A stretch of 28,265 nt of DNA, from contig CAZYED010000001.1 in the NCBI GenBank assembly GCA_964646295.1, positions 22,527-50,791 on the forward strand, read 5' to 3'. Below the pieces are notes generated by a model. That model made no database searches. It was not told where the DNA came from and saw only the letters and a list, made by a program, of their open reading frames with translations. The translations under genes and the position numbers were made by a program. The DNA comes from an uncultured Candidatus Saccharibacteria bacterium (GTDB lineage Bacteria; Patescibacteriota; Minisyncoccia; Sungbacterales; HO2-52-23). Positions 4,663 through 26,075 of this stretch are shown here, piece by piece (position 1 is the first letter of the stretch; each line of letters begins with the position of its first letter).

Positions 4663-6018
4663 ATGGAGAAAGCATCAGAACAAAACTTCGTATCAATGGA
4701 AAAGATCGTGAGCTTGGCCAAGCGGCGCGGCTTTGTCTTTCCCGCGTCCGAGATATATGGCGGGCTTGCTGGTACATGGGACTATGGGCCTTTGGGCGTG
4801 GAGCTCAAAAACAACATCAAAGAAATGTGGTGGCGGAGATTTGTGCGTGCCCGCGACGACATGGTGGGGATTGATACTGCAATCGTGATGAATCCGAAAG
4901 TATGGGAAGTATCGGGCCACGTCGGCGAATTTACCGATCCTCTGGTAGAGTGCAAAAAATGCCATCAGCGTTTTCGCGCCGATCAGACGGACGAATGGAC
5001 GGGACATTACGCGCGGGAGCATGGCCGGGCGGCAGAGGACGCGGATTTTTCCGAAGCGCGGAATTTCAATCTTCTGTTTCGCACATTTGTCGGCCCGGTG
5101 GAGGATTCCGCAAGCCAGACATACTTGCGTCCCGAAACTGCGCAGGGGATGTTTGTGAATTTCAAAAATATCACGGATACCATGCGCCATACTCTGCCTT
5201 TTGGTATCGCGCAGATCGGCAAGGCATTTCGCAACGAAATCACTCCGCGCGACTTCATCTTCCGCTCCCGCGAATTTGAGCAGATGGAAATAGAGTATTT
5301 TGTCCGCGAGGCGTCATGGGAGGATCACTTCGCGCACTGGCTCAACGAAATGCGCGCGTGGATCAGCGATATGGGTATCAGTATGGAGCGCGTGCATGAG
5401 CTTGAAGTGCCGGACGGGGAGCGCGCGCACTACTCAAAGCGCACGGTTGATTTTGAGTATGATTTTCCGTTTGGTAAAAAAGAACTGTACGGCCTCGCAT
5501 ACCGGGGCGACTTTGATCTCAAAAATCACTTCAAAGAGCCGCCGTATCGCGAGGAGGGCGAGGAGCCGTTTTATCCGCACGTGATTGAGCCGACATGGGG
5601 CGTGGATCGTACGGTGCTTGCGGTTTTGCTTGAGGCGTATCGTGAGGAAGAAAGCAAGAAAGGAAAGCGCGTATATCTGAAACTGCCGCCACGTCTGGCG
5701 CCCTACAAAGCCGCCGTATTTCCTCTGGTATCAAATCGTCCGCAGATCGTGGAAAAAGCAAATGAGGTGTGCAAGGAGCTCAAAGCGGGGGGGTTCAGTG
5801 TCGCATGGGACGCGCGCGGCAACATCGGCAAGCGTTATTATGCGCAGGATGAGATCGGCACTCCCTACTGTATCACGGTAGATTATCAGACATTGGAAGA
5901 CGGTACCGTGACAGTGCGCGATCGCGACACGGCAAAACAGGAACGCATAGCCGTGTCGGAATTGGCAAGGTTTTTAGCAGAAAAAACAAAGGGATCAATC
6001 TCAAACGCCACGCAATAG
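4663..6018 (+). CDS. glyQS: Glycyl-tRNA synthetase, homodimeric class II type
   Basis: KRRGFVFPASEIYGG, WDYGPLG, YLRPETAQG, motif 2 QIGKAFRNEITP, EQMEIEYF, and anticodon domain IGKRYYAQDEIGTPYCITVD. Confidence 0.97.
   Translation: MEKASEQNFVSMEKIVSLAKRRGFVFPASEIYGGLAGTWDYGPLGVELKNNIKEMWWRRFVRARDDMVGIDTAIVMNPKVWEVSGHVGEFTDPLVECKKCHQRFRADQTDEWTGHYAREHGRAAEDADFSEARNFNLLFRTFVGPVEDSASQTYLRPETAQGMFVNFKNITDTMRHTLPFGIAQIGKAFRNEITPRDFIFRSREFEQMEIEYFVREASWEDHFAHWLNEMRAWISDMGISMERVHELEVPDGERAHYSKRTVDFEYDFPFGKKELYGLAYRGDFDLKNHFKEPPYREEGEEPFYPHVIEPTWGVDRTVLAVLLEAYREEESKKGKRVYLKLPPRLAPYKAAVFPLVSNRPQIVEKANEVCKELKAGGFSVAWDARGNIGKRYYAQDEIGTPYCITVDYQTLEDGTVTVRDRDTAKQERIAVSELARFLAEKTKGSISNATQ
5917..5942 (+). 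repeat. 26-bp direct repeat, left copy (inside glyQS 3' end); right copy at 10842-10867
   Basis: CGCGATCGCGACACGGCAAAACAGGA is identical at both positions and begins with the 10-bp palindrome CGCGATCGCG. Confidence 0.92.
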
Positions 6019-6087
6019 CCGTGCAGATTTGGATTTATCCATCATCGTGTTGCCAACTTTCTGGAAATGTTGGTCTTTATGCGTCTC

Positions 6088-6116
6088 TTGCGCTCAATAT
6101 CCTTTTGCGCTACATT
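6088..6116 (+). promoter_or_regulatory. Predicted sigma70 promoter in the CRISPR leader
   Basis: TTGCGC(6088-6093)-17 bp-TACATT(6111-6116), 31 bp before repeat 1. Confidence 0.6.
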
Positions 6117-6147
6117 CCCAAAAGCTCTTTGATAGGCCCAAGGCGCT

Positions 6148-7728
6148 GTCTAAGAGTTACCCTATGAGAGGGAGTGTGTAAACGGGCGTAAACGGGCTTT
6201 GGGTCGTTACCCATCTGCGTCTAAGAGTTACCCTATGAGAGGGAGTTGCAAACTTCTGATGCTGGCAGTGATCCATCGCGGGTCTAAGAGCTACTCTCTG
6301 AGAGGAAGTGTGTAAACGTGCGTTGGCTTCCCTAATCTTATTCTTCTAAGAGCTACCCCATGAGAGGATGTGTTGAAACCATTATTGGCCTCCATGTGAG
6401 ATGTGTCAAAGAGTTCCTCATGAGAGGAGGTGTTGAAACGGCTTTTCTCCATCCTGCTAATACAGGTCAAAGGGCCACCTCATGAGAGGGAGTATGCAAA
6501 CGTGTGGTTTCTTTTTCTTGACAATTGTCTAAGAGTTGCCCCATGAGAGGGAGCATGCAAACAGGTGGTCCGTCTCAATCAGCATGGAATCTAAGAGCTA
6601 CTCCATGAGAGGGAGTATGTAAACAGGAGATTCTTCAAGCCGTCGAGGGGTCTAAGGACTACCTTATGAGAGGGAGTACGTAAACGAGCAGTCGGGTTTT
6701 GGCAGATTGAGTCAAAGATGAGAGGGAGCATGTAAACACGCTCTCAAAAAACTTGATGCCGTATCTAAGAACTACCCCATGAGAGGAAGTGTGTAAACTT
6801 GTAAACGCTTCCGTGCCACACATGTCCAGGAGTTACCCTGTGAGAGGGAGCATCTAAACCCAACAGCCGTAATGAGTAGCCCCGTCTAAGAGCCACCTTG
6901 TGAGAGGGAGCGTGTAAACCAACACACTTTTACCACGGAGGCTATGTCTAAGGACTACCTCATGAGAGGGGGCATGCAAACGCGGGATGTTCTCGTGGGT
7001 CGCCTTGGTCTAAGAGTCATCCCATGAGAGGAAGTGTGTAAACGCGTATCGGTGTGCTCGATTGAGAAGTCCAAGAGTTACCCCATGAGAGGGAGCATGG
7101 AAACGACCGAGCCTTCGACTTCCCACGCGAGTCTAAGAGCTACCCCATGGGAGGGAGCGTATAAACAATAACTTGTGTATCATTCGTGTAGAGTTAAAGA
7201 GCCACCTCATGAGAGGAAGTGTGTAAACAGGAGCGCACCGTACCAAAACAATTACGTCTAAGAACTACCCAATGAGAGGATGTATTGAAACCGGACAACG
7301 TCAGCATGCTCTTGAGATCAAAAAGTTGCCATATGAGGGGGAGCGTGTAAACGCCTAAAAACAGAAGGCGACCAAATTGTCTAAGTCTAAGAGTTCCCCT
7401 ATGGGAGGGAGCATGTAAACAAGTCCTCTGATCGTCCGCCATCCCATGTCTAAGAGTCACCCCATGAGAGGGGCATGTAAACCGTCGTCCGAGTCGCAAC
7501 GAGTTTGCAGTCTAAGCGCTACCCTATGAGAGGAAGTGTGTAAACTATAACGTCCTCTGCAAGGTGTCTGGTCTAAGAGTCATCCCATGAGAGGGAGCAT
7601 GTAAACATAGCCCTGACAGGAGAGAGTTACCAGTCTAAGGATTACCTCATGAGAGGGAGAATTGAAACGACGGCAATGGGTGGGGTCCTCAGAGTCTAAG
7701 AGTCACCAATGAGAGGAGGTATTGAAAC
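6148..7728 (+). CRISPR. CRISPR array: 26 degenerate ~36-bp repeats and 25 spacers (24-28 bp, one of 35 bp)
   Basis: Approximate consensus GTCTAAGAGYTACCYCATGAGAGGRAGYRTGTAAAC with a ~61-62 bp period. Repeat starts: 6148, 6219, 6282, 6344, 6405, 6466, 6527, 6589, 6650, 6711, 6763, 6824, 6884, 6946, 7008, 7069, 7131, 7193, 7256, 7317, 7385, 7448, 7510, 7571, 7633, 7694. All end in AAAC. Confidence 0.96.
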
Positions 7729-7756
7729 CTGGCTTACCATGAAGAGTAGCCAACAT

Positions 7757-7916
7757 TAAATTTTTTGAGCCCTGTCTCCGCGAGGAAGACAGGGCTCTTT
7801 TCATGAGAGGAAGCTTTTATACCCGACCGGTAATCCGGTCGGGGGATTGGCCGTTGAAACGATTTTAAAGCGGCCAATGGGCTTCTCTGTACGATACTAC
7901 CTATACAAGGAGCTTG
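7757..7916 (-). ncRNA. Predicted tracrRNA (boundaries approximate)
   Basis: Lies downstream of a canonical promoter. Contains stems at 7846-7878 and 7822-7843 (9-bp perfect), an anti-repeat at 7802-7822 complementary to the repeat 3' half, and the 7767-7797 hairpin. Confidence 0.72.
7767..7801 (+). terminator. Intrinsic terminator-like hairpin downstream of the array
   Basis: Perfect 11-bp stem GAGCCCTGTCT/AGACAGGGCTC (7767-7797) followed by TTTT on the + strand. Confidence 0.6.
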
Positions 7917-7922
7917 GGGAAA

Positions 7923-7951
7923 AAGATAGCTCAATCACGTTATCTTGTCAA
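7923..7951 (-). promoter_or_regulatory. Predicted sigma70 promoter for the tracrRNA
   Basis: Minus strand TTGACA(7951-7946)-17 bp-TATCTT(7928-7923). The -35 box lies in the last codons of the cas gene. Confidence 0.7.
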
Positions 7952-10513
7952 GGGGTTGGGAGCATCGGTATCCGGCGTGCGCCTGATCAAAGATATGGCG
8001 CGCCACGCCAGATTGATCGCGGCCAGCACGTCGGACTGTCCGTTGAATCCGCATCGGTGGCAAAAAAACTGCCCCCATTGCGGTTGCGGCTCAAGCGCAA
8101 GCCCGAGCAGTTGTCTGCTCTTGTGATCGTCCCCTTGCCGGATCGCTCGCTCAAGGTCTTCCAATGTCCCCCGCACGACGCGATGATAACGCGGAGTCAG
8201 CCGGACCCACTCCCTGCTAAGCGTAAAAAGTTCCCCGAAATCCACAGTGCCTGCATCGCAATCCACGTTGTCAAACCCCGTTGCGGCCGCGTCATCCACG
8301 ATATCGGGAATGACTACCATGGTATCGCGGTGTCCGGGATTTTTCGGTCGTCTCGCAAGCCAGGCGGTTCCGCACTGTGTGCAGGTGCGGGAGATGCCGC
8401 CCGGATAAATTTCCATCAGACCTCCCCATGGGTTGTCTTTTTTGTCAATGCGGACCGCGCCGGCAAAACTCAACGCGTCCACAAAGCCCGTTTTGTTGGC
8501 AAGATAGGTCTTTTTGGAAATAATCTTTTGCTCCCTGCCATGGAACCGGTCATCCAGCCGTTCTATCGCGAGGATACCTTTCCAAAATGCGACCAGTGAA
8601 TGGATCTTTGCCCGGGCGCTTCCCAAAACCGTATCCTGCAGGTGTCGGACCTTTTGGCGTAAATCGCGGGGCGGGGTTTGTTCGCGGGATTGGTACTCGC
8701 TGATCCGGCGTCTGGTCTCTATCAACCGGTCTATGTACTCCTTTTTGCCGAGAATACCCTCCTCAAGCACCCGGCCATCCTCTACAGACACCACGGCATA
8801 GGCAAGCGGATTGACCTCGCCGCGGTTTATCCCGATGACGGTGCGGGCGCGGGAATGCACATCGGAGGAGAAATCCAGATACCCCACCGGCGGAGGTCCG
8901 CTGATGACCATATGGAAGAATAACGTCCACTGGTCTTGGGGATTTCTTTTTTTCCCCACCAGCTTGGCGTTGGAGGCGAATACGCGCGGATTATCCGACA
9001 AGAGGCCCCACGTTTTATTGGTGAGCATCTTGCGCGCCTGCGATCTGCCGAAATAAAGGCGGAGTTTCAGCGCTACACCGGATGCGGGGTACTCGTCAAA
9101 AGATCCGGGTACCCATGTGATCTCTTTGTCCGGATTGTCTTTGCCTCGTCTGCCGCCGGTCGGTCTCATATAGATCAAATCTCCTCCTTTTTCTCTGATA
9201 GAGAATGCGGCGGGTGATGGGGAAAGACAGATATATAACTCCAGGGCATCGGCCGGAGTGTCGGCGTCTTTGGCAAGCGCCATGCCGTATTGAGGCGCGG
9301 GATTGGTCCGGTTGCTCGCCCACGAAAATCCTTCAAACGGGGCCGATATTGTCTCGGCTCGCACTCTTCTGCTTGCCGCATTGCTCCGGAGGAACTGGAT
9401 CTCGGTCCACCGGTCAGGATGCGCAAGCGTCGCGCGAAAGGAAAGGATATCCATGTATCTTGCCCTGATCTGGCTGTCAAAGGGCGCGCGGGCAAATCCT
9501 TGACGGCGCTTTTCGCATACCCGATCAATTTCGCCGAGGAAATGTCCGGCGACCGTTGACGGATCTTCTTCGGGGTTCCTCTCCATACGGATAGCACAGT
9601 ACAGAGCGACTCGTTGGGGCAGTGGCACGGCGCTTCCGAGTTTCCGGCGCACAGCCTTGTGCCTCACGCGATGGATATAGCCGAGGGTTTCGGCGGTGTG
9701 TGGTCTGACCTTTGCCATATCTTCCAGTTGCCGGATGATTACCATGGTATCCGGCGGCGTCCCGCGCTCGGCAATGGGAAATTTCGGAAGGTCGTTGATC
9801 CGCCCATTGAAAAATCGGAGGCGGGGCGACTCCCCGGTTTCTTCCGGCTCGTCCGCTTTCGCAAGGGCTGGAAGCATCTGATTGAGCGCGTAATTGTACG
9901 CGCCTTTCAGCACGTTTGTCTCTGCAATGAGCGCCCGGAATGCGCAAAGCGCGCCAAAATCCGCCGTCACCGCATCATACTCGGGCGCCAGACAGGTGGT
10001 GAGGCGGGTACGCAGGGCGTTGACAATGTCGGCCCAATCCATGTCCGCCGCATCCCGGAGTAACGCCTCATTGGCCTCCAAACACTCGGCGTATTCCCGC
10101 ATTTTCTTCCGGCCTTCCTCAAAAAGCCGTCGGTGGTTGGTGTGGAATGCGGCCATTGCGCCTTCGGCCTCGTGTCGCATTGCCGTAAAAACGGCAGATG
10201 TCATGATCGCGGGGTCAATATCGCGAAGGCCGTCAAGCACGGGCCTGCCTTTAAAAAATGTCTCGTATGAGAATTTTTCTTTCAGGTAGGCAAGGGGATT
10301 TTCTTGGAAATGCGCATAGAGCATTCCATAGAGTCTCTCACGCGCGGCCTCTGTCGCGGCAAACCATCGCTCTATGATGGCGTATTGCCTCTTTGTCGGT
10401 TTTATGCCAAAAGAGAATACGCGCGTGACTTGTCCGGGGATGACCCCGAAGTGATCGCTAATACGAGTCGTGTTGACCAAGGATTTGGTACTGGGCTTAT
10501 GCGCGTCGTCCAC
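7940..10513 (-). CDS. cas12: Type V CRISPR effector, CasX/Cas12e-like (857 aa), with RuvC-I Asp replaced by Asn; predicted nuclease-impaired
   Basis: TnpB-like N-terminus (RVFSFGIKPTKRQ), RuvC-I VIGINRGEVNP, RuvC-II ILAIERL (E651), split Zn ribbon CTQC (711-714) and CHRC (818-821), RuvC-III QSDVLAAINLA (D828). GTG start with SD AAGGAG; adjacent to the array. From memory it closely resembles the Ca. Sungbacteria 'CasX3' sequence in CasX patent filings (not verified). Confidence 0.9.
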   Translation of the reverse strand: MDDAHKPSTKSLVNTTRISDHFGVIPGQVTRVFSFGIKPTKRQYAIIERWFAATEAARERLYGMLYAHFQENPLAYLKEKFSYETFFKGRPVLDGLRDIDPAIMTSAVFTAMRHEAEGAMAAFHTNHRRLFEEGRKKMREYAECLEANEALLRDAADMDWADIVNALRTRLTTCLAPEYDAVTADFGALCAFRALIAETNVLKGAYNYALNQMLPALAKADEPEETGESPRLRFFNGRINDLPKFPIAERGTPPDTMVIIRQLEDMAKVRPHTAETLGYIHRVRHKAVRRKLGSAVPLPQRVALYCAIRMERNPEEDPSTVAGHFLGEIDRVCEKRRQGFARAPFDSQIRARYMDILSFRATLAHPDRWTEIQFLRSNAASRRVRAETISAPFEGFSWASNRTNPAPQYGMALAKDADTPADALELYICLSPSPAAFSIREKGGDLIYMRPTGGRRGKDNPDKEITWVPGSFDEYPASGVALKLRLYFGRSQARKMLTNKTWGLLSDNPRVFASNAKLVGKKRNPQDQWTLFFHMVISGPPPVGYLDFSSDVHSRARTVIGINRGEVNPLAYAVVSVEDGRVLEEGILGKKEYIDRLIETRRRISEYQSREQTPPRDLRQKVRHLQDTVLGSARAKIHSLVAFWKGILAIERLDDRFHGREQKIISKKTYLANKTGFVDALSFAGAVRIDKKDNPWGGLMEIYPGGISRTCTQCGTAWLARRPKNPGHRDTMVVIPDIVDDAAATGFDNVDCDAGTVDFGELFTLSREWVRLTPRYHRVVRGTLEDLERAIRQGDDHKSRQLLGLALEPQPQWGQFFCHRCGFNGQSDVLAAINLAWRAISLIRRTPDTDAPNPLTR

Positions 10514-24908: not shown

Positions 24909-26075
24909 ATGGGTATACCCCTTAAGCTTTATGATCCCAAATGGGATAGTAAGCTTGCGAAGACTATTATTGAACTGGAAAAACTTAGAATCAAAAAGCT
25001 TGAGGGTCCAGTTCCTCCGTATATATTCTTTCAATTGAAAGATATTTTCCAGATGTTCGAAAGTCTAGGATCTGCACGAATTGAAGGAAACCGTACAACA
25101 CTATCCGAATTCGTTGAGAGAATAATTGAGAATCCCTCTAAAGATGCAAAGGACGAGAGGATGCAGGAAATTTTCAATATAGAAAGGGCCATTGAGTTCA
25201 TTGAGAAAAATATTAAGAAAACCACCCAATTTGATAGAGCTCTCATTTCAGAGATTCATAGGATCATTGTAGAAGGGCTTACTCCGCCTCCTACTGGTGA
25301 AGGATCAAGATACCCTGGAGAGTTTAGGCCGATTAACGTTTCAATCCAGCATTCAGGACACGTTCCGCCGGATCATATAAAAGTACCCGAGTACGTCGAG
25401 GAACTATTGAGTTTTGTAAATAAGTCTATCGATACCCAGTATCATCTGTTAGCCATCGCGTTGTCTCATCATCGTATGGCGTGGATCCATCCGTTTGATA
25501 ACGGCAACGGTAGAATGGTGCGGATGTTTACGTATGCACTTTTAATTAAGCAGGGCTTTCAGGTCAAAACCGGAAGGATATTGAATCCAACGGCCATATT
25601 CTGCATGGATCGGAATAAGTATTATGATATGCTTTCTCTTGCTGATTCGGGTAATGAGGATAAGGTGCTTGAATGGTGCCTCTATGTTCTTGAGGGACTA
25701 CGTTCCGAGATAGAAAAGATCGATAGGTTGCTTGATTTGGGATATACCGTTAATACGGTCTTACTTCCGATGCTTTCCTATGCCTTTGAACGTAAACATA
25801 TCACGAAGCGTGAACATGATATCCTTGCCGCAATTGTGAAGGGTAGAGACATGAGTACGAGATCTGCTAATTTGAAATCAGCGATAGGTAGCGAATCTCC
25901 CGTCCAAAAGTCACGGATACTCAAGAGATTAAGAGACAAACGGATGCTTATTCCACTTAAGGAAAAAGGCAGAGTTTATACGATAGGGTTTGCTAATAAT
26001 TATCTATTGCGAGGTATCGCGCATGTTTTGGAGCAAAATGGATTTGTGCCAGCATCTTTAAATAAGAGGAGCTAA
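24909..26075 (+). CDS. Fic family protein with N-terminal inhibitory motif and C-terminal winged helix
   Basis: HPFDNGNGRMVR Fic motif and SARIEG (S/T)xxxE(G/N) inhibitory motif; AT-rich. ATG 24909 is preferred over TTG 24876. Confidence 0.9.
   Translation: MGIPLKLYDPKWDSKLAKTIIELEKLRIKKLEGPVPPYIFFQLKDIFQMFESLGSARIEGNRTTLSEFVERIIENPSKDAKDERMQEIFNIERAIEFIEKNIKKTTQFDRALISEIHRIIVEGLTPPPTGEGSRYPGEFRPINVSIQHSGHVPPDHIKVPEYVEELLSFVNKSIDTQYHLLAIALSHHRMAWIHPFDNGNGRMVRMFTYALLIKQGFQVKTGRILNPTAIFCMDRNKYYDMLSLADSGNEDKVLEWCLYVLEGLRSEIEKIDRLLDLGYTVNTVLLPMLSYAFERKHITKREHDILAAIVKGRDMSTRSANLKSAIGSESPVQKSRILKRLRDKRMLIPLKEKGRVYTIGFANNYLLRGIAHVLEQNGFVPASLNKRS

What the first reader, a model, noticed from the sequence alone, without database searches (positions are those of the whole stretch)
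7802..7822. Repeat variation is constrained by G-U wobble pairing to one anti-repeat, which fixes orientation and indicates selection
The minus-strand anti-repeat 5'-GCUUCCUCUCAUG-3' (7814-7802) pairs with 13 nt of the + strand repeat. 19 of 26 repeats pair at all 13 positions when G-U is allowed. Positions facing U vary mostly A/G, positions facing G vary mostly C/T, and the six positions facing C or A are invariant. In the opposite orientation the wobble-tolerant positions would be exactly the invariant ones. This supports a + strand crRNA and a - strand tracrRNA, and shows the array is still under functional constraint. My recollection is that patent guide sequences for the homologue use the reverse orientation, so earlier tests may have used the wrong strands (unverified).
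Basis: partly seen in the sequence, partly recalled or inferred. Interest (0 to 1): 0.76.

Follow-up and report, generated by a model that had tools for sequence, protein, structure and literature searches.

The report
CasX tracrRNA anti-repeat fixes guide orientation
The flagged 13 bases are the pairing site of the helper RNA (tracrRNA) of a compact CasX/Cas12e CRISPR system in a groundwater Sungbacteria genome; the way the 26 CRISPR repeats vary, together with related loci, shows that guides are read from the + strand and the helper RNA from the - strand.

Summary
With G-U allowed, 19 of 26 repeats pair at all 13 positions with the minus-strand sequence 7814-7802, against 0 of 26 in the opposite orientation. 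All 7 positions facing U or G vary by transition. All 6 positions facing C or A are invariant (Fisher p about 6e-4). G/T positions elsewhere in the repeat vary freely (9 of 10, p about 9e-4).

One caveat: the raw count of 19/26 is not unique. An unrelated pyrimidine-rich 13-mer at 25629 reaches 20/26. The pattern of variation carries the signal, not the count.

The reading is supported independently. The effector (7940-10513, minus strand) is a Cas12e. Its tracrRNA has a conserved promoter, a stem closing a 17-nt U-rich loop, a scaffold hairpin, an AAAAG linker and then the anti-repeat. This RNA recurs directly downstream of cas12e, on the gene strand, in at least 10 related loci, with compensatory changes. 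In each locus the anti-repeat and the loop co-vary with that locus's repeats. Loci whose leader lies next to cas2 give the same repeat polarity (3' end ...AAAC).

This is a new member of a known kind (type V-E guide RNA). No transcript data could be obtained. The patent remark agrees with my own recollection but cannot be verified here.

The parts
6019..6147 (+). Leader of the CRISPR array, between the stop of the class II aminoacyl-tRNA synthetase gene and repeat 1
   Evidence: It is nearly identical in the 90%-identity relatives. In the variant arrays L003 and L001, the extra units with identical repeats lie at this end. No strong sigma-70 match was found on the + strand, so the promoter is inferred.
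6148..7728 (+). CRISPR array: 26 repeats of 35-36 nt (one truncated at 6717-6737), no two identical; spacers mostly 24-28 nt; crRNA sense 5'-GUCUAAGAG...AAAC-3'
   Evidence: The AAAC 3' end is invariant. Orientation follows.
7729..7753 (+). Terminal spacer-like segment after the last repeat, with no repeat downstream; it would be a 26th guide if the handle lies 5' of the spacer
   Evidence: This segment differs between the window and L003, while the sequence from CATTAAATTTTTT onward is shared. Its role as a guide is inferred.
7767..7801 (.). 13-bp hairpin (7767-7797) plus TTTT (7798-7801). On the + strand it looks like an intrinsic terminator for the pre-crRNA. On the - strand it is the 3' hairpin of the tracrRNA, at the position where relatives have their terminator.
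   Evidence: The single substitution in L001 (G to A on the window + strand) keeps pairing as G-U only in the minus-strand RNA.
7802..7814 (-). Anti-repeat 5'-GCUUCCUCUCAUG-3', pairing with repeat positions 16-28
7815..7821 (-). Conserved A-rich linker (UAUAAAA) that precedes the anti-repeat in all relatives (YAUAAAAG type)
   Evidence: Alignment A2; sequences.
7822..7843 (-). Scaffold hairpin: 9-bp stem with an AUUA loop
   Evidence: compensatory changes across loci.
7847..7877 (-). Stem P1 (7847-7853 with 7871-7877) closing a 17-nt loop with two U-runs. GUUUCAA (7860-7854) pairs with the repeat's 3' tail. CUUUA (7870-7866) is a candidate third strand of a triplex.
   Evidence: The loop is 17-18 nt with two U-runs in L017, L024 and L025, and longer in L023.
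7878..7916 (-). Lineage-specific 5' extension of the tracrRNA, forming a hairpin
   Evidence: This part varies between the window and L001 with G-C to A-U compensatory changes. The transcription start near 7916 is inferred from the promoter.
7923..7951 (-). tracrRNA promoter: TTGACA, 17-nt spacer, TATCTT; it overlaps the last codons of cas12e
   Evidence: A TTGACA box with a 17-nt spacer is present at the same place in L001, L017, L023, L024 and L025.
7940..10513 (-). cas12e (CasX-type effector, 857 aa) with Asn in place of the RuvC-I Asp (N563)
   Evidence: NCBIfam NF045604 at 681 bits. PADLOC Cas12e. The family profile matches VemCas12e 8xyc at 5e-62 and PlmCasX 7way at 1e-50. N563.

Best explanation
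Window 7802-7814 encodes, on the minus strand, the anti-repeat at the 3' side of the tracrRNA of a compact type V-E (Cas12e/CasX) system of a Candidatus Sungbacteria genome.

The tracrRNA starts near 7916 from a TTGACA-N17-TATCTT promoter that overlaps the end of cas12e. Reading 5' to 3', it contains:
- a lineage-specific 5' hairpin;
- stem P1 closing a 17-nt loop with two U-runs;
- a scaffold hairpin;
- an A-rich linker;
- the 13-nt anti-repeat;
- a terminal hairpin.

The array is transcribed from the leader at 6019-6147 on the + strand, so it converges on the tracrRNA. Each crRNA would carry about 21 nt of repeat as a 5' handle followed by its spacer. Handle positions 16-28 pair with the anti-repeat (the Cas12e 'extended stem'). 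The invariant 3' AAAC pairs with GUUU in the tracrRNA loop, probably as part of a U-A-U triplex as in solved Cas12e guide RNAs.

The repeats have drifted apart. The anti-repeat carries U or G at every position where they vary. Positions whose change would break pairing have not changed. This is the footprint of purifying selection on crRNA:tracrRNA pairing.

Shown: the sequences, the statistics, the homology, and covariation across loci. Inferred: transcription, processing, the triplex, and current activity.
For: Counts and tests in the window: 19/26 against 0/26 fully paired; 49 against 0 wobble-compatible differences; Fisher p = 5.8e-4 and 8.7e-4.

Effector identity: Cas12e.

tracrRNA region:
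- It folds with z = -6.8.
- It has a promoter on the minus strand.
- It is identical from 7757 to 7880, apart from one base, in relatives whose Cas12e is 90% identical, while the flanks vary.
- In the alignment of 8 loci, 11 of 15 stem pairs carry compensatory changes.
- The covariance model finds the same RNA just downstream of cas12e, on the gene strand, in three loci not used for training: L018 (60.6 bits), L028 (32.2 bits) and L013 (19.7 bits).
- In the relatives the anti-repeat is followed by a terminator on that strand.

Covariation with the repeats:
- The anti-repeats differ between loci and match each locus's own repeats, always leaving a 5-8 nt 3' tail.
- Counting columns with a G-U pair, 13 are wobble in this orientation and 2 would be wobble only in the opposite one; both of those lie at duplex ends.
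- The repeat tail and the tracrRNA loop co-vary: AAAC/GUUU, CUAAAAC/GUUUUAG, GCAAC/GUUGC, UCAAAC/GUUUGA.

Independent polarity markers:
- L023, L025 and L028 have cas4-cas1-cas2 with the leader next to the array. Reading from that leader gives repeats ending in AAAC.
- L003 carries two more units than L001 at the leader end, with identical repeats.

Published Cas12e guide RNAs have a triplex, a scaffold stem and a repeat:anti-repeat extended stem, with conserved repeat 3' ends (PMC11685505).
Against: No RNA data: no RNA run was listed for the window or for the relative.

No convincing + strand promoter was found in the leader.

On the minus strand the hairpin after the anti-repeat is followed by A6U3, not a U-run, so the 3' end of the tracrRNA is unclear.

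The anti-repeat is only 13 nt, against about 20 nt in most relatives.

The raw 19/26 count is matched by a chance 13-mer elsewhere in the window.

The statistical tests rest on 13 to 16 columns, and the repeats are not independent.

Most repeats pair with the tracrRNA loop over only 4-5 of 7 positions.

The effector lacks the RuvC-I Asp and the genome has no cas1 (assembly 92.5% complete). The system may not be a working nuclease-based defence.
Confidence: 0.85

Rival explanations
1. The orientation is as proposed, but the invariance of the six G/U positions comes from direct protein contacts or another requirement of the handle, not from pairing with the anti-repeat. The wobble fit is then a by-product.
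For: The invariant positions are mostly G in a purine tract, and Cas12e proteins contact the extended stem (PMC11685505). The AAAC tail is invariant even though A-to-G facing U would still pair. Constraint beyond simple pairing therefore exists in this RNA.
Against: Position 25 of the repeat is G in 17 copies and A in 9, and the anti-repeat carries U there. Positions 16 and 28 are C/U mixtures facing G. The split between tolerant and intolerant columns follows the anti-repeat base exactly, 7/7 against 0/6. In relatives, different repeat sequences are matched by different anti-repeats.
Confidence: 0.08
2. 7802-7822 is only a decayed last repeat of the array with no function, and the wobble pattern is chance or mutation bias.
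For: On the + strand it is a repeat-like copy in the same sense as the array: 7802-7822 matches the repeat's 3' 21 nt at about 15 positions. A template drawn from the repeats' own alleles reaches 19/26 in 4% of draws. An unrelated 13-mer reaches 20/26.
Against: It lies at the homologous position, directly after the conserved linker, in a structured RNA found in 10 other loci. The region is conserved base for base while the neighbouring DNA varies. G-to-A and T-to-C changes are common in the rest of the repeat, at 9 of 10 columns, so mutation bias does not explain 0 of 6.
Confidence: 0.04
3. Opposite orientation: guides come from the minus strand (5'-GUUUAC...UUAGAC-3') and the partner RNA from the + strand. 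As I recall, this is how the repeat is written in patent listings.
For: In L017, L019, L023 and L025 the array is on the same strand as cas12e. Copying that layout onto this locus would give the minus strand. Duplex energies computed over the whole 7757-7916 interval do not discriminate: -26.8 against -26.3 kcal/mol.
Against: 0 of 26 repeats pair fully in that orientation. The tracrRNA homologue, its promoter and its stems (with G-U pairs) lie on the gene strand. The repeat polarity set by cas2-leader loci puts AAAC at the 3' end, which is the + strand here. L028 shows the same inverted layout as the window.
Confidence: 0.03

Closest known systems
Guide RNAs of DpbCas12e/PlmCas12e (CasX) and of VemCas12e/LesCas12e (PDB 6ny1, 7way, 8xyc, 8y2i; PMC11685505)
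   Same: The effector family is the same. The tracrRNA has a U-rich triplex region, a scaffold stem and a 3' anti-repeat that forms the extended stem with the repeat. The crRNA is a 5' handle followed by the spacer, and the repeat 3' end is conserved.
   Different: Protein identity to the solved enzymes is too low for a single-sequence search to find them. The repeat ends in AAAC; from my own knowledge, not checked here, CasX repeats end in CAAAG. The anti-repeat is only 13 nt. The array is inverted relative to cas12e and the tracrRNA. The repeats are all different. RuvC-I Asp is replaced by Asn.
OpbCas12e locus (PMC11685505)
   Same: It lacks an adaptation module, and the tracrRNA gene lies between cas12e and the array.
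   Different: OpbCas12e is an active nuclease according to that paper.
Related compact Cas12e loci found here (L017, L023, L024, L025, L019, L018, L021, L028, L013)
   Same: They share the tracrRNA family, in the same position and on the same strand relative to cas12e, with the same register of repeat pairing.
   Different: Most have anti-repeats of about 20 nt, a clear terminator, the catalytic Asp, and often cas4-cas1-cas2. Only L028 shares the inverted array.

Membership tests
Type V-E (Cas12e/CasX) CRISPR-Cas guide RNA system | Effector homologous to Cas12e over its full length | tested here: met
   NF045604 at 681 bits against a cut-off of 200. PADLOC Cas12e. A profile of 14 relatives matches VemCas12e at 5e-62, PlmCasX at 1e-50, LesCas12e at 3e-49 and DpbCasX at 1e-39.
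Type V-E (Cas12e/CasX) CRISPR-Cas guide RNA system | tracrRNA gene in the locus, with its anti-repeat at the 3' side pairing with the repeat (extended stem) | tested here: met
   The 13-nt anti-repeat at 7814-7802 pairs with repeat positions 16-28. The homologous RNA is present in 10 other loci. This is an in silico test only.
Type V-E (Cas12e/CasX) CRISPR-Cas guide RNA system | Scaffold stem and other tracrRNA helices | tested here: met
   11 of 15 consensus pairs carry compensatory changes.
Type V-E (Cas12e/CasX) CRISPR-Cas guide RNA system | Triplex formed by the conserved repeat 3' end and U-runs of the tracrRNA | tested here: inconclusive
   Watson-Crick pairing between the repeat tail and the tracrRNA loop co-varies across loci. 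A second U-run is present. The AAAC is invariant even to wobble-compatible change. A third strand cannot be shown from sequence.
Type V-E (Cas12e/CasX) CRISPR-Cas guide RNA system | Expression and processing of the crRNA (5' handle, 3' spacer) and the tracrRNA | not testable with these tools
   No RNA run was listed for the window or for the relative.
Type V-E (Cas12e/CasX) CRISPR-Cas guide RNA system | Intact RuvC D-E-D catalytic triad | tested here: not met
   N563 replaces the RuvC-I Asp in the window and in P0001; all 12 other relatives have Asp. E651 and D828 are kept. This lowers the claim 'active nuclease', not family membership by homology.
Type V-E (Cas12e/CasX) CRISPR-Cas guide RNA system | Adaptation module cas4-cas1-cas2 (present in the founding loci; not universal) | tested here: not met
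   No Cas1 match in the own genome, which is 92.5% complete. The module is present in relatives L023, L025, L027 and L028. The published OpbCas12e locus also lacks it.

The most novel reading that the evidence does not exclude
The Sungbacteria CasX lineage is a naturally nuclease-impaired, RNA-guided DNA binder. It keeps a drifting set of about 26 different guides usable through one short anti-repeat that acts as a universal wobble partner. Because its array is inverted relative to cas12e, guide designs listed so far for this orthologue are on the wrong strand, so it has never been tested properly.
Probability: 0.2. Interest if true: 0.7.

Novelty: new member of a known kind. Interest (0 to 1): 0.45.

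Why it matters
It gives a concrete, testable guide RNA design for an uncharacterised compact CasX orthologue of 857 aa: the tracrRNA is 7916-7802 on the minus strand, and the crRNA handle is the last 21 nt or so of the + strand repeat.

It also warns that copying the usual layout, with the array on the cas gene strand, gives the wrong strand here.

The locus is a clean natural example of using G-U asymmetry, plus covariation between a repeat tail and a tracrRNA loop, to orient a CRISPR array. It shows that repeats can drift a long way while pairing with a single tracrRNA is preserved.

The mechanism itself is the known type V-E one.

Tried and rejected
1. RNA evidence. Two searches for public RNA runs, one with the window and one with relative L016, listed none.

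2. Duplex energies of whole repeats against the whole 7757-7916 interval in both orientations. They do not discriminate (-26.8 against -26.3 kcal/mol). The method ignores intramolecular structure and finds spurious purine/pyrimidine pairings. The 13-mer energies (-19.8 against -15.7) only restate the wobble count.

3. An internal hairpin in the repeat as the explanation. RNAalifold gives a consensus energy of -0.34 kcal/mol with no compensatory pair. Two explicit hairpin registers do not exceed shuffled or slid controls. Rejected.

4. Uniqueness of the 19/26 count. A scan of the window found a chance 13-mer at 25629 with 20/26, so I do not use the count as evidence on its own.

5. Rfam. No family came near threshold in 5900-8100.

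6. Literature. No paper in the held library mentions Sungbacteria together with CasX or Cas12, or contains the repeat sequence. The founding CasX papers are not held, and one PMC id that I recalled was wrong.

7. An exact look-up of the window's own Cas12e in other assemblies found nothing.

8. A + strand leader promoter. No match at the scan's threshold.

Full report
WHAT IS THERE

The window holds a CRISPR array of 26 repeats on the + strand at 6148-7728. Downstream lies a structured non-coding stretch (7745-7939). Beyond it is an 857-aa gene on the minus strand (7940-10513).

The protein is a Cas12e/CasX:
- NCBIfam NF045604 scores 681 bits against a cut-off of 200.
- PADLOC assigns Cas12e.
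- A profile of the protein with 13 relatives matches the solved VemCas12e (5e-62), PlmCasX (1e-50), LesCas12e and DpbCasX.
- The single sequence alone finds none of these solved structures.

The closest relative, at 90% identity, is from Candidatus Sungbacteria bacterium RIFCSPHIGHO2_02_FULL. The neighbouring genes are housekeeping genes.

THE OBSERVATION

The minus strand of 7802-7814 reads 5'-GCUUCCUCUCAUG-3'. I extracted the 26 repeat cores and recounted.
- 19 of 26 pair at all 13 positions if G-U is allowed.
- 0 of 26 do so in the opposite strand assignment.
- 49 of the 58 cells that differ from perfect complementarity are wobble pairs in the first orientation, and none in the second.

On a gapped alignment the six columns facing C or A are strictly invariant. 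All seven columns facing U or G show transitions.

Column-level tests avoid counting related repeats many times:
- 7/7 against 0/6 gives Fisher p = 5.8e-4.
- G/T columns elsewhere in the repeat vary by transition in 9 of 10 cases, against 0 of 6 in the duplex, p = 8.7e-4. A general bias against G-to-A or T-to-C changes is therefore not the cause.
- The anti-repeat is the single best possible partner built from the repeats' own alleles. A random draw reaches 19/26 in 4.2% of cases, and no actual repeat used as a template exceeds 14.

One caveat matters. The repeat core is a purine tract, so any U/C-rich 13-mer pairs with it when G-U is allowed. A scan of the window found an unrelated 13-mer at 25629 that pairs fully with 20 of 26 repeats. 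The bare count is not evidence; the position-specific pattern is.

The consensus fold is worth -0.34 kcal/mol with no compensatory pair, and two explicit registers do not beat shuffled or slid controls. That hairpin would also leave the invariant U18 and G19 in its loop and G27 outside it, so it gives no reason for their invariance.

INDEPENDENT EVIDENCE FOR THE tracrRNA AND ITS STRAND

In the window:
- The region 7745-7920 on the minus strand folds far better than shuffles (z = -6.8).
- A TTGACA-N17-TATCTT promoter lies on the minus strand at 7951-7923. This puts the start near 7916.
- In the 90%-identity relatives, 7757-7880 is identical apart from one base, while 7881-7939 varies.

More distant relatives, at 23-34% protein identity, were found by an exhaustive search and their loci fetched. 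The same RNA lies directly after cas12e, on the gene strand, in L017, L023, L024, L025, L019 and L021. Its parts, in order:
- a TTGACA promoter, seen in L001, L017, L023, L024 and L025;
- a stem closing a loop with two U-runs (17-18 nt in L017, L024 and L025);
- a scaffold hairpin;
- a YAUAAAAG linker;
- an anti-repeat;
- a hairpin plus U-run terminator.

RNAalifold finds compensatory changes in 11 of 15 pairs. A covariance model built from these sequences also finds the RNA at the same place and strand in three loci not used for training: L018 (60.6 bits), L028 (32.2 bits) and L013 (19.7 bits). Rfam has no such family.

COVARIATION BETWEEN tracrRNA AND REPEATS

The anti-repeat differs between loci and matches each locus's own repeats. 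It covers repeat positions 9-28 or 16-28 and leaves a 5-8 nt 3' tail.

Counting columns with a G-U pair, 13 are wobble in the proposed orientation. Two would be wobble only in the reverse orientation, and both lie at duplex ends.

The repeat's 3' tail pairs with the 3' part of the tracrRNA loop, and the two change together:
- CUAAAAC with GUUUUAG in L017, L025 and L013;
- GCAAC with GUUGC in L019;
- UCAAAC with GUUUGA in L028;
- AAAC with GUUU in the window.

In the window, five repeats ending in UUGAAAC pair over all seven positions of the loop segment.

Published Cas12e guide RNAs consist of a triplex region, a scaffold stem and a repeat:anti-repeat extended stem, with conserved repeat 3' ends that form the triplex (PMC11685505). 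The AAAC here is invariant even to A-to-G changes that would still pair with U. That fits a base triple, but the triple itself is inference.

ARRAY POLARITY WITHOUT THE tracrRNA

L023 and L025 carry cas12e-cas4-cas1-cas2, then a leader, then the array. L028 has the adaptation genes and the array on the strand opposite to cas12e. In all three, reading from the cas2-proximal leader gives repeats ending in AAAC. L028 also has its degenerate repeat at the far end. By homology, the window's + strand repeat (GUCUAAGAG...AAAC) is the crRNA sense.

Two variants of the Sungbacteria array differ by two units with identical repeats at the end next to 6019-6147 (L003 against L001). This marks that end as the leader.

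On the + strand the array begins with a repeat and ends with a spacer-like segment followed by a hairpin and TTTT. That suits a crRNA with its handle 5' of the spacer.

The one substitution in that hairpin in L001 keeps pairing only in the minus-strand RNA. The hairpin is probably also the 3' hairpin of the tracrRNA.

WHAT IS NOT SHOWN

- No RNA run could be listed, so transcription, processing and present-day activity are inferred.
- No good + strand promoter was found in the leader.
- The tracrRNA lacks a clean terminator on its strand.
- Whole-interval duplex energies do not discriminate between the orientations.
- The effector carries Asn instead of the RuvC-I Asp, as does its 90% relative, while 12 other relatives keep Asp.
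- The 92.5%-complete genome has no cas1.
- Whether the system cuts, only binds, or is decaying is open.

One spacer is shared with the relative (window spacer 12 matches L003 spacer 5, with 1 mismatch). All five substitutions in the duplex region of its two flanking orthologous repeats are wobble-tolerated (read). This supports constraint acting since the two lineages split.

THE PATENT REMARK

From my own memory, which cannot be verified here, patent listings for the Sungbacteria CasX give four 25-nt repeat sequences beginning GUUUACAC... or UUUUACAU.... All four occur exactly in the NCBI Sungbacteria locus on the cas12e-coding strand. They are therefore the reverse complement of the last 25 nt of the repeat in the sense derived here.

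I found no open paper on this orthologue's guide RNA. Whether any experiment used those sequences as RNA is unknown.

VERDICT

Its statistical core is sound, at p of about 1e-3. The reading is right: + strand crRNA, - strand tracrRNA, and pairing under constraint. It is strongly backed by comparative evidence.

This is a new member of the known type V-E guide RNA architecture. Its practical value is a correct guide design for an untested compact CasX. It is also unusual in that an array of all-different repeats is served by one short anti-repeat.

Noticed in passing
window 8825-8827 (codon 563 of the minus-strand gene): The RuvC-I catalytic Asp is Asn in the window's Cas12e and in the 90%-identity Sungbacteria homologue. 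All 12 other relatives aligned have Asp. The RuvC-II Glu and RuvC-III Asp are kept.
   Followed up: partly
window 7878-7916 (-) and L001 12598-12635: The Sungbacteria tracrRNA has a 5' extension of about 40 nt that the other relatives lack. It folds as a hairpin and differs between the window and L001 by G-C to A-U compensatory changes. In the window it can alternatively pair with the anti-repeat itself.
   Followed up: partly
window 6359-6379, 6419-6439, 7271-7291, 7648-7668, 7708-7728: Five repeats end in UUGAAAC and pair with all 7 nt of the tracrRNA loop segment GUUUCAA. The other repeats pair over only 4-5 positions. Guides may therefore differ in how well they load.
   Followed up: no
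L003 6900-7320 against L001 12780-13010, and window 6860-6883: The relatives' arrays have only 4 or 6 repeats. L003 has two extra leader-end units with identical repeats. One spacer is shared with the window (window spacer 12 matches the last spacer of L003). Yet no cas1 is found in the window's genome. The source of new spacers and the history of the trailer side are unexplained.
   Followed up: partly
window 7729-7753: A 25-nt segment after the last repeat differs completely between the window and L003, while the following sequence is shared. It looks like a final spacer with no downstream repeat.
   Followed up: no
window 25629-25641 (+): An unrelated pyrimidine-rich 13-mer pairs, with G-U allowed, with 20 of the 26 repeats. 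This shows how promiscuous the purine-rich repeat core is.
   Followed up: no
L028 1-1362 and 5920-6003: A distant relative has cas4-cas1-cas2 and its array on the strand opposite to cas12e and the tracrRNA. The inverted layout of the window is therefore not unique in this family.
   Followed up: partly
L019 1684-1702: L019 has a second, longer stretch complementary to its repeat (19 nt), about 45 nt downstream of the architecture-defined anti-repeat at 1627-1639. Its role is unknown.
   Followed up: no
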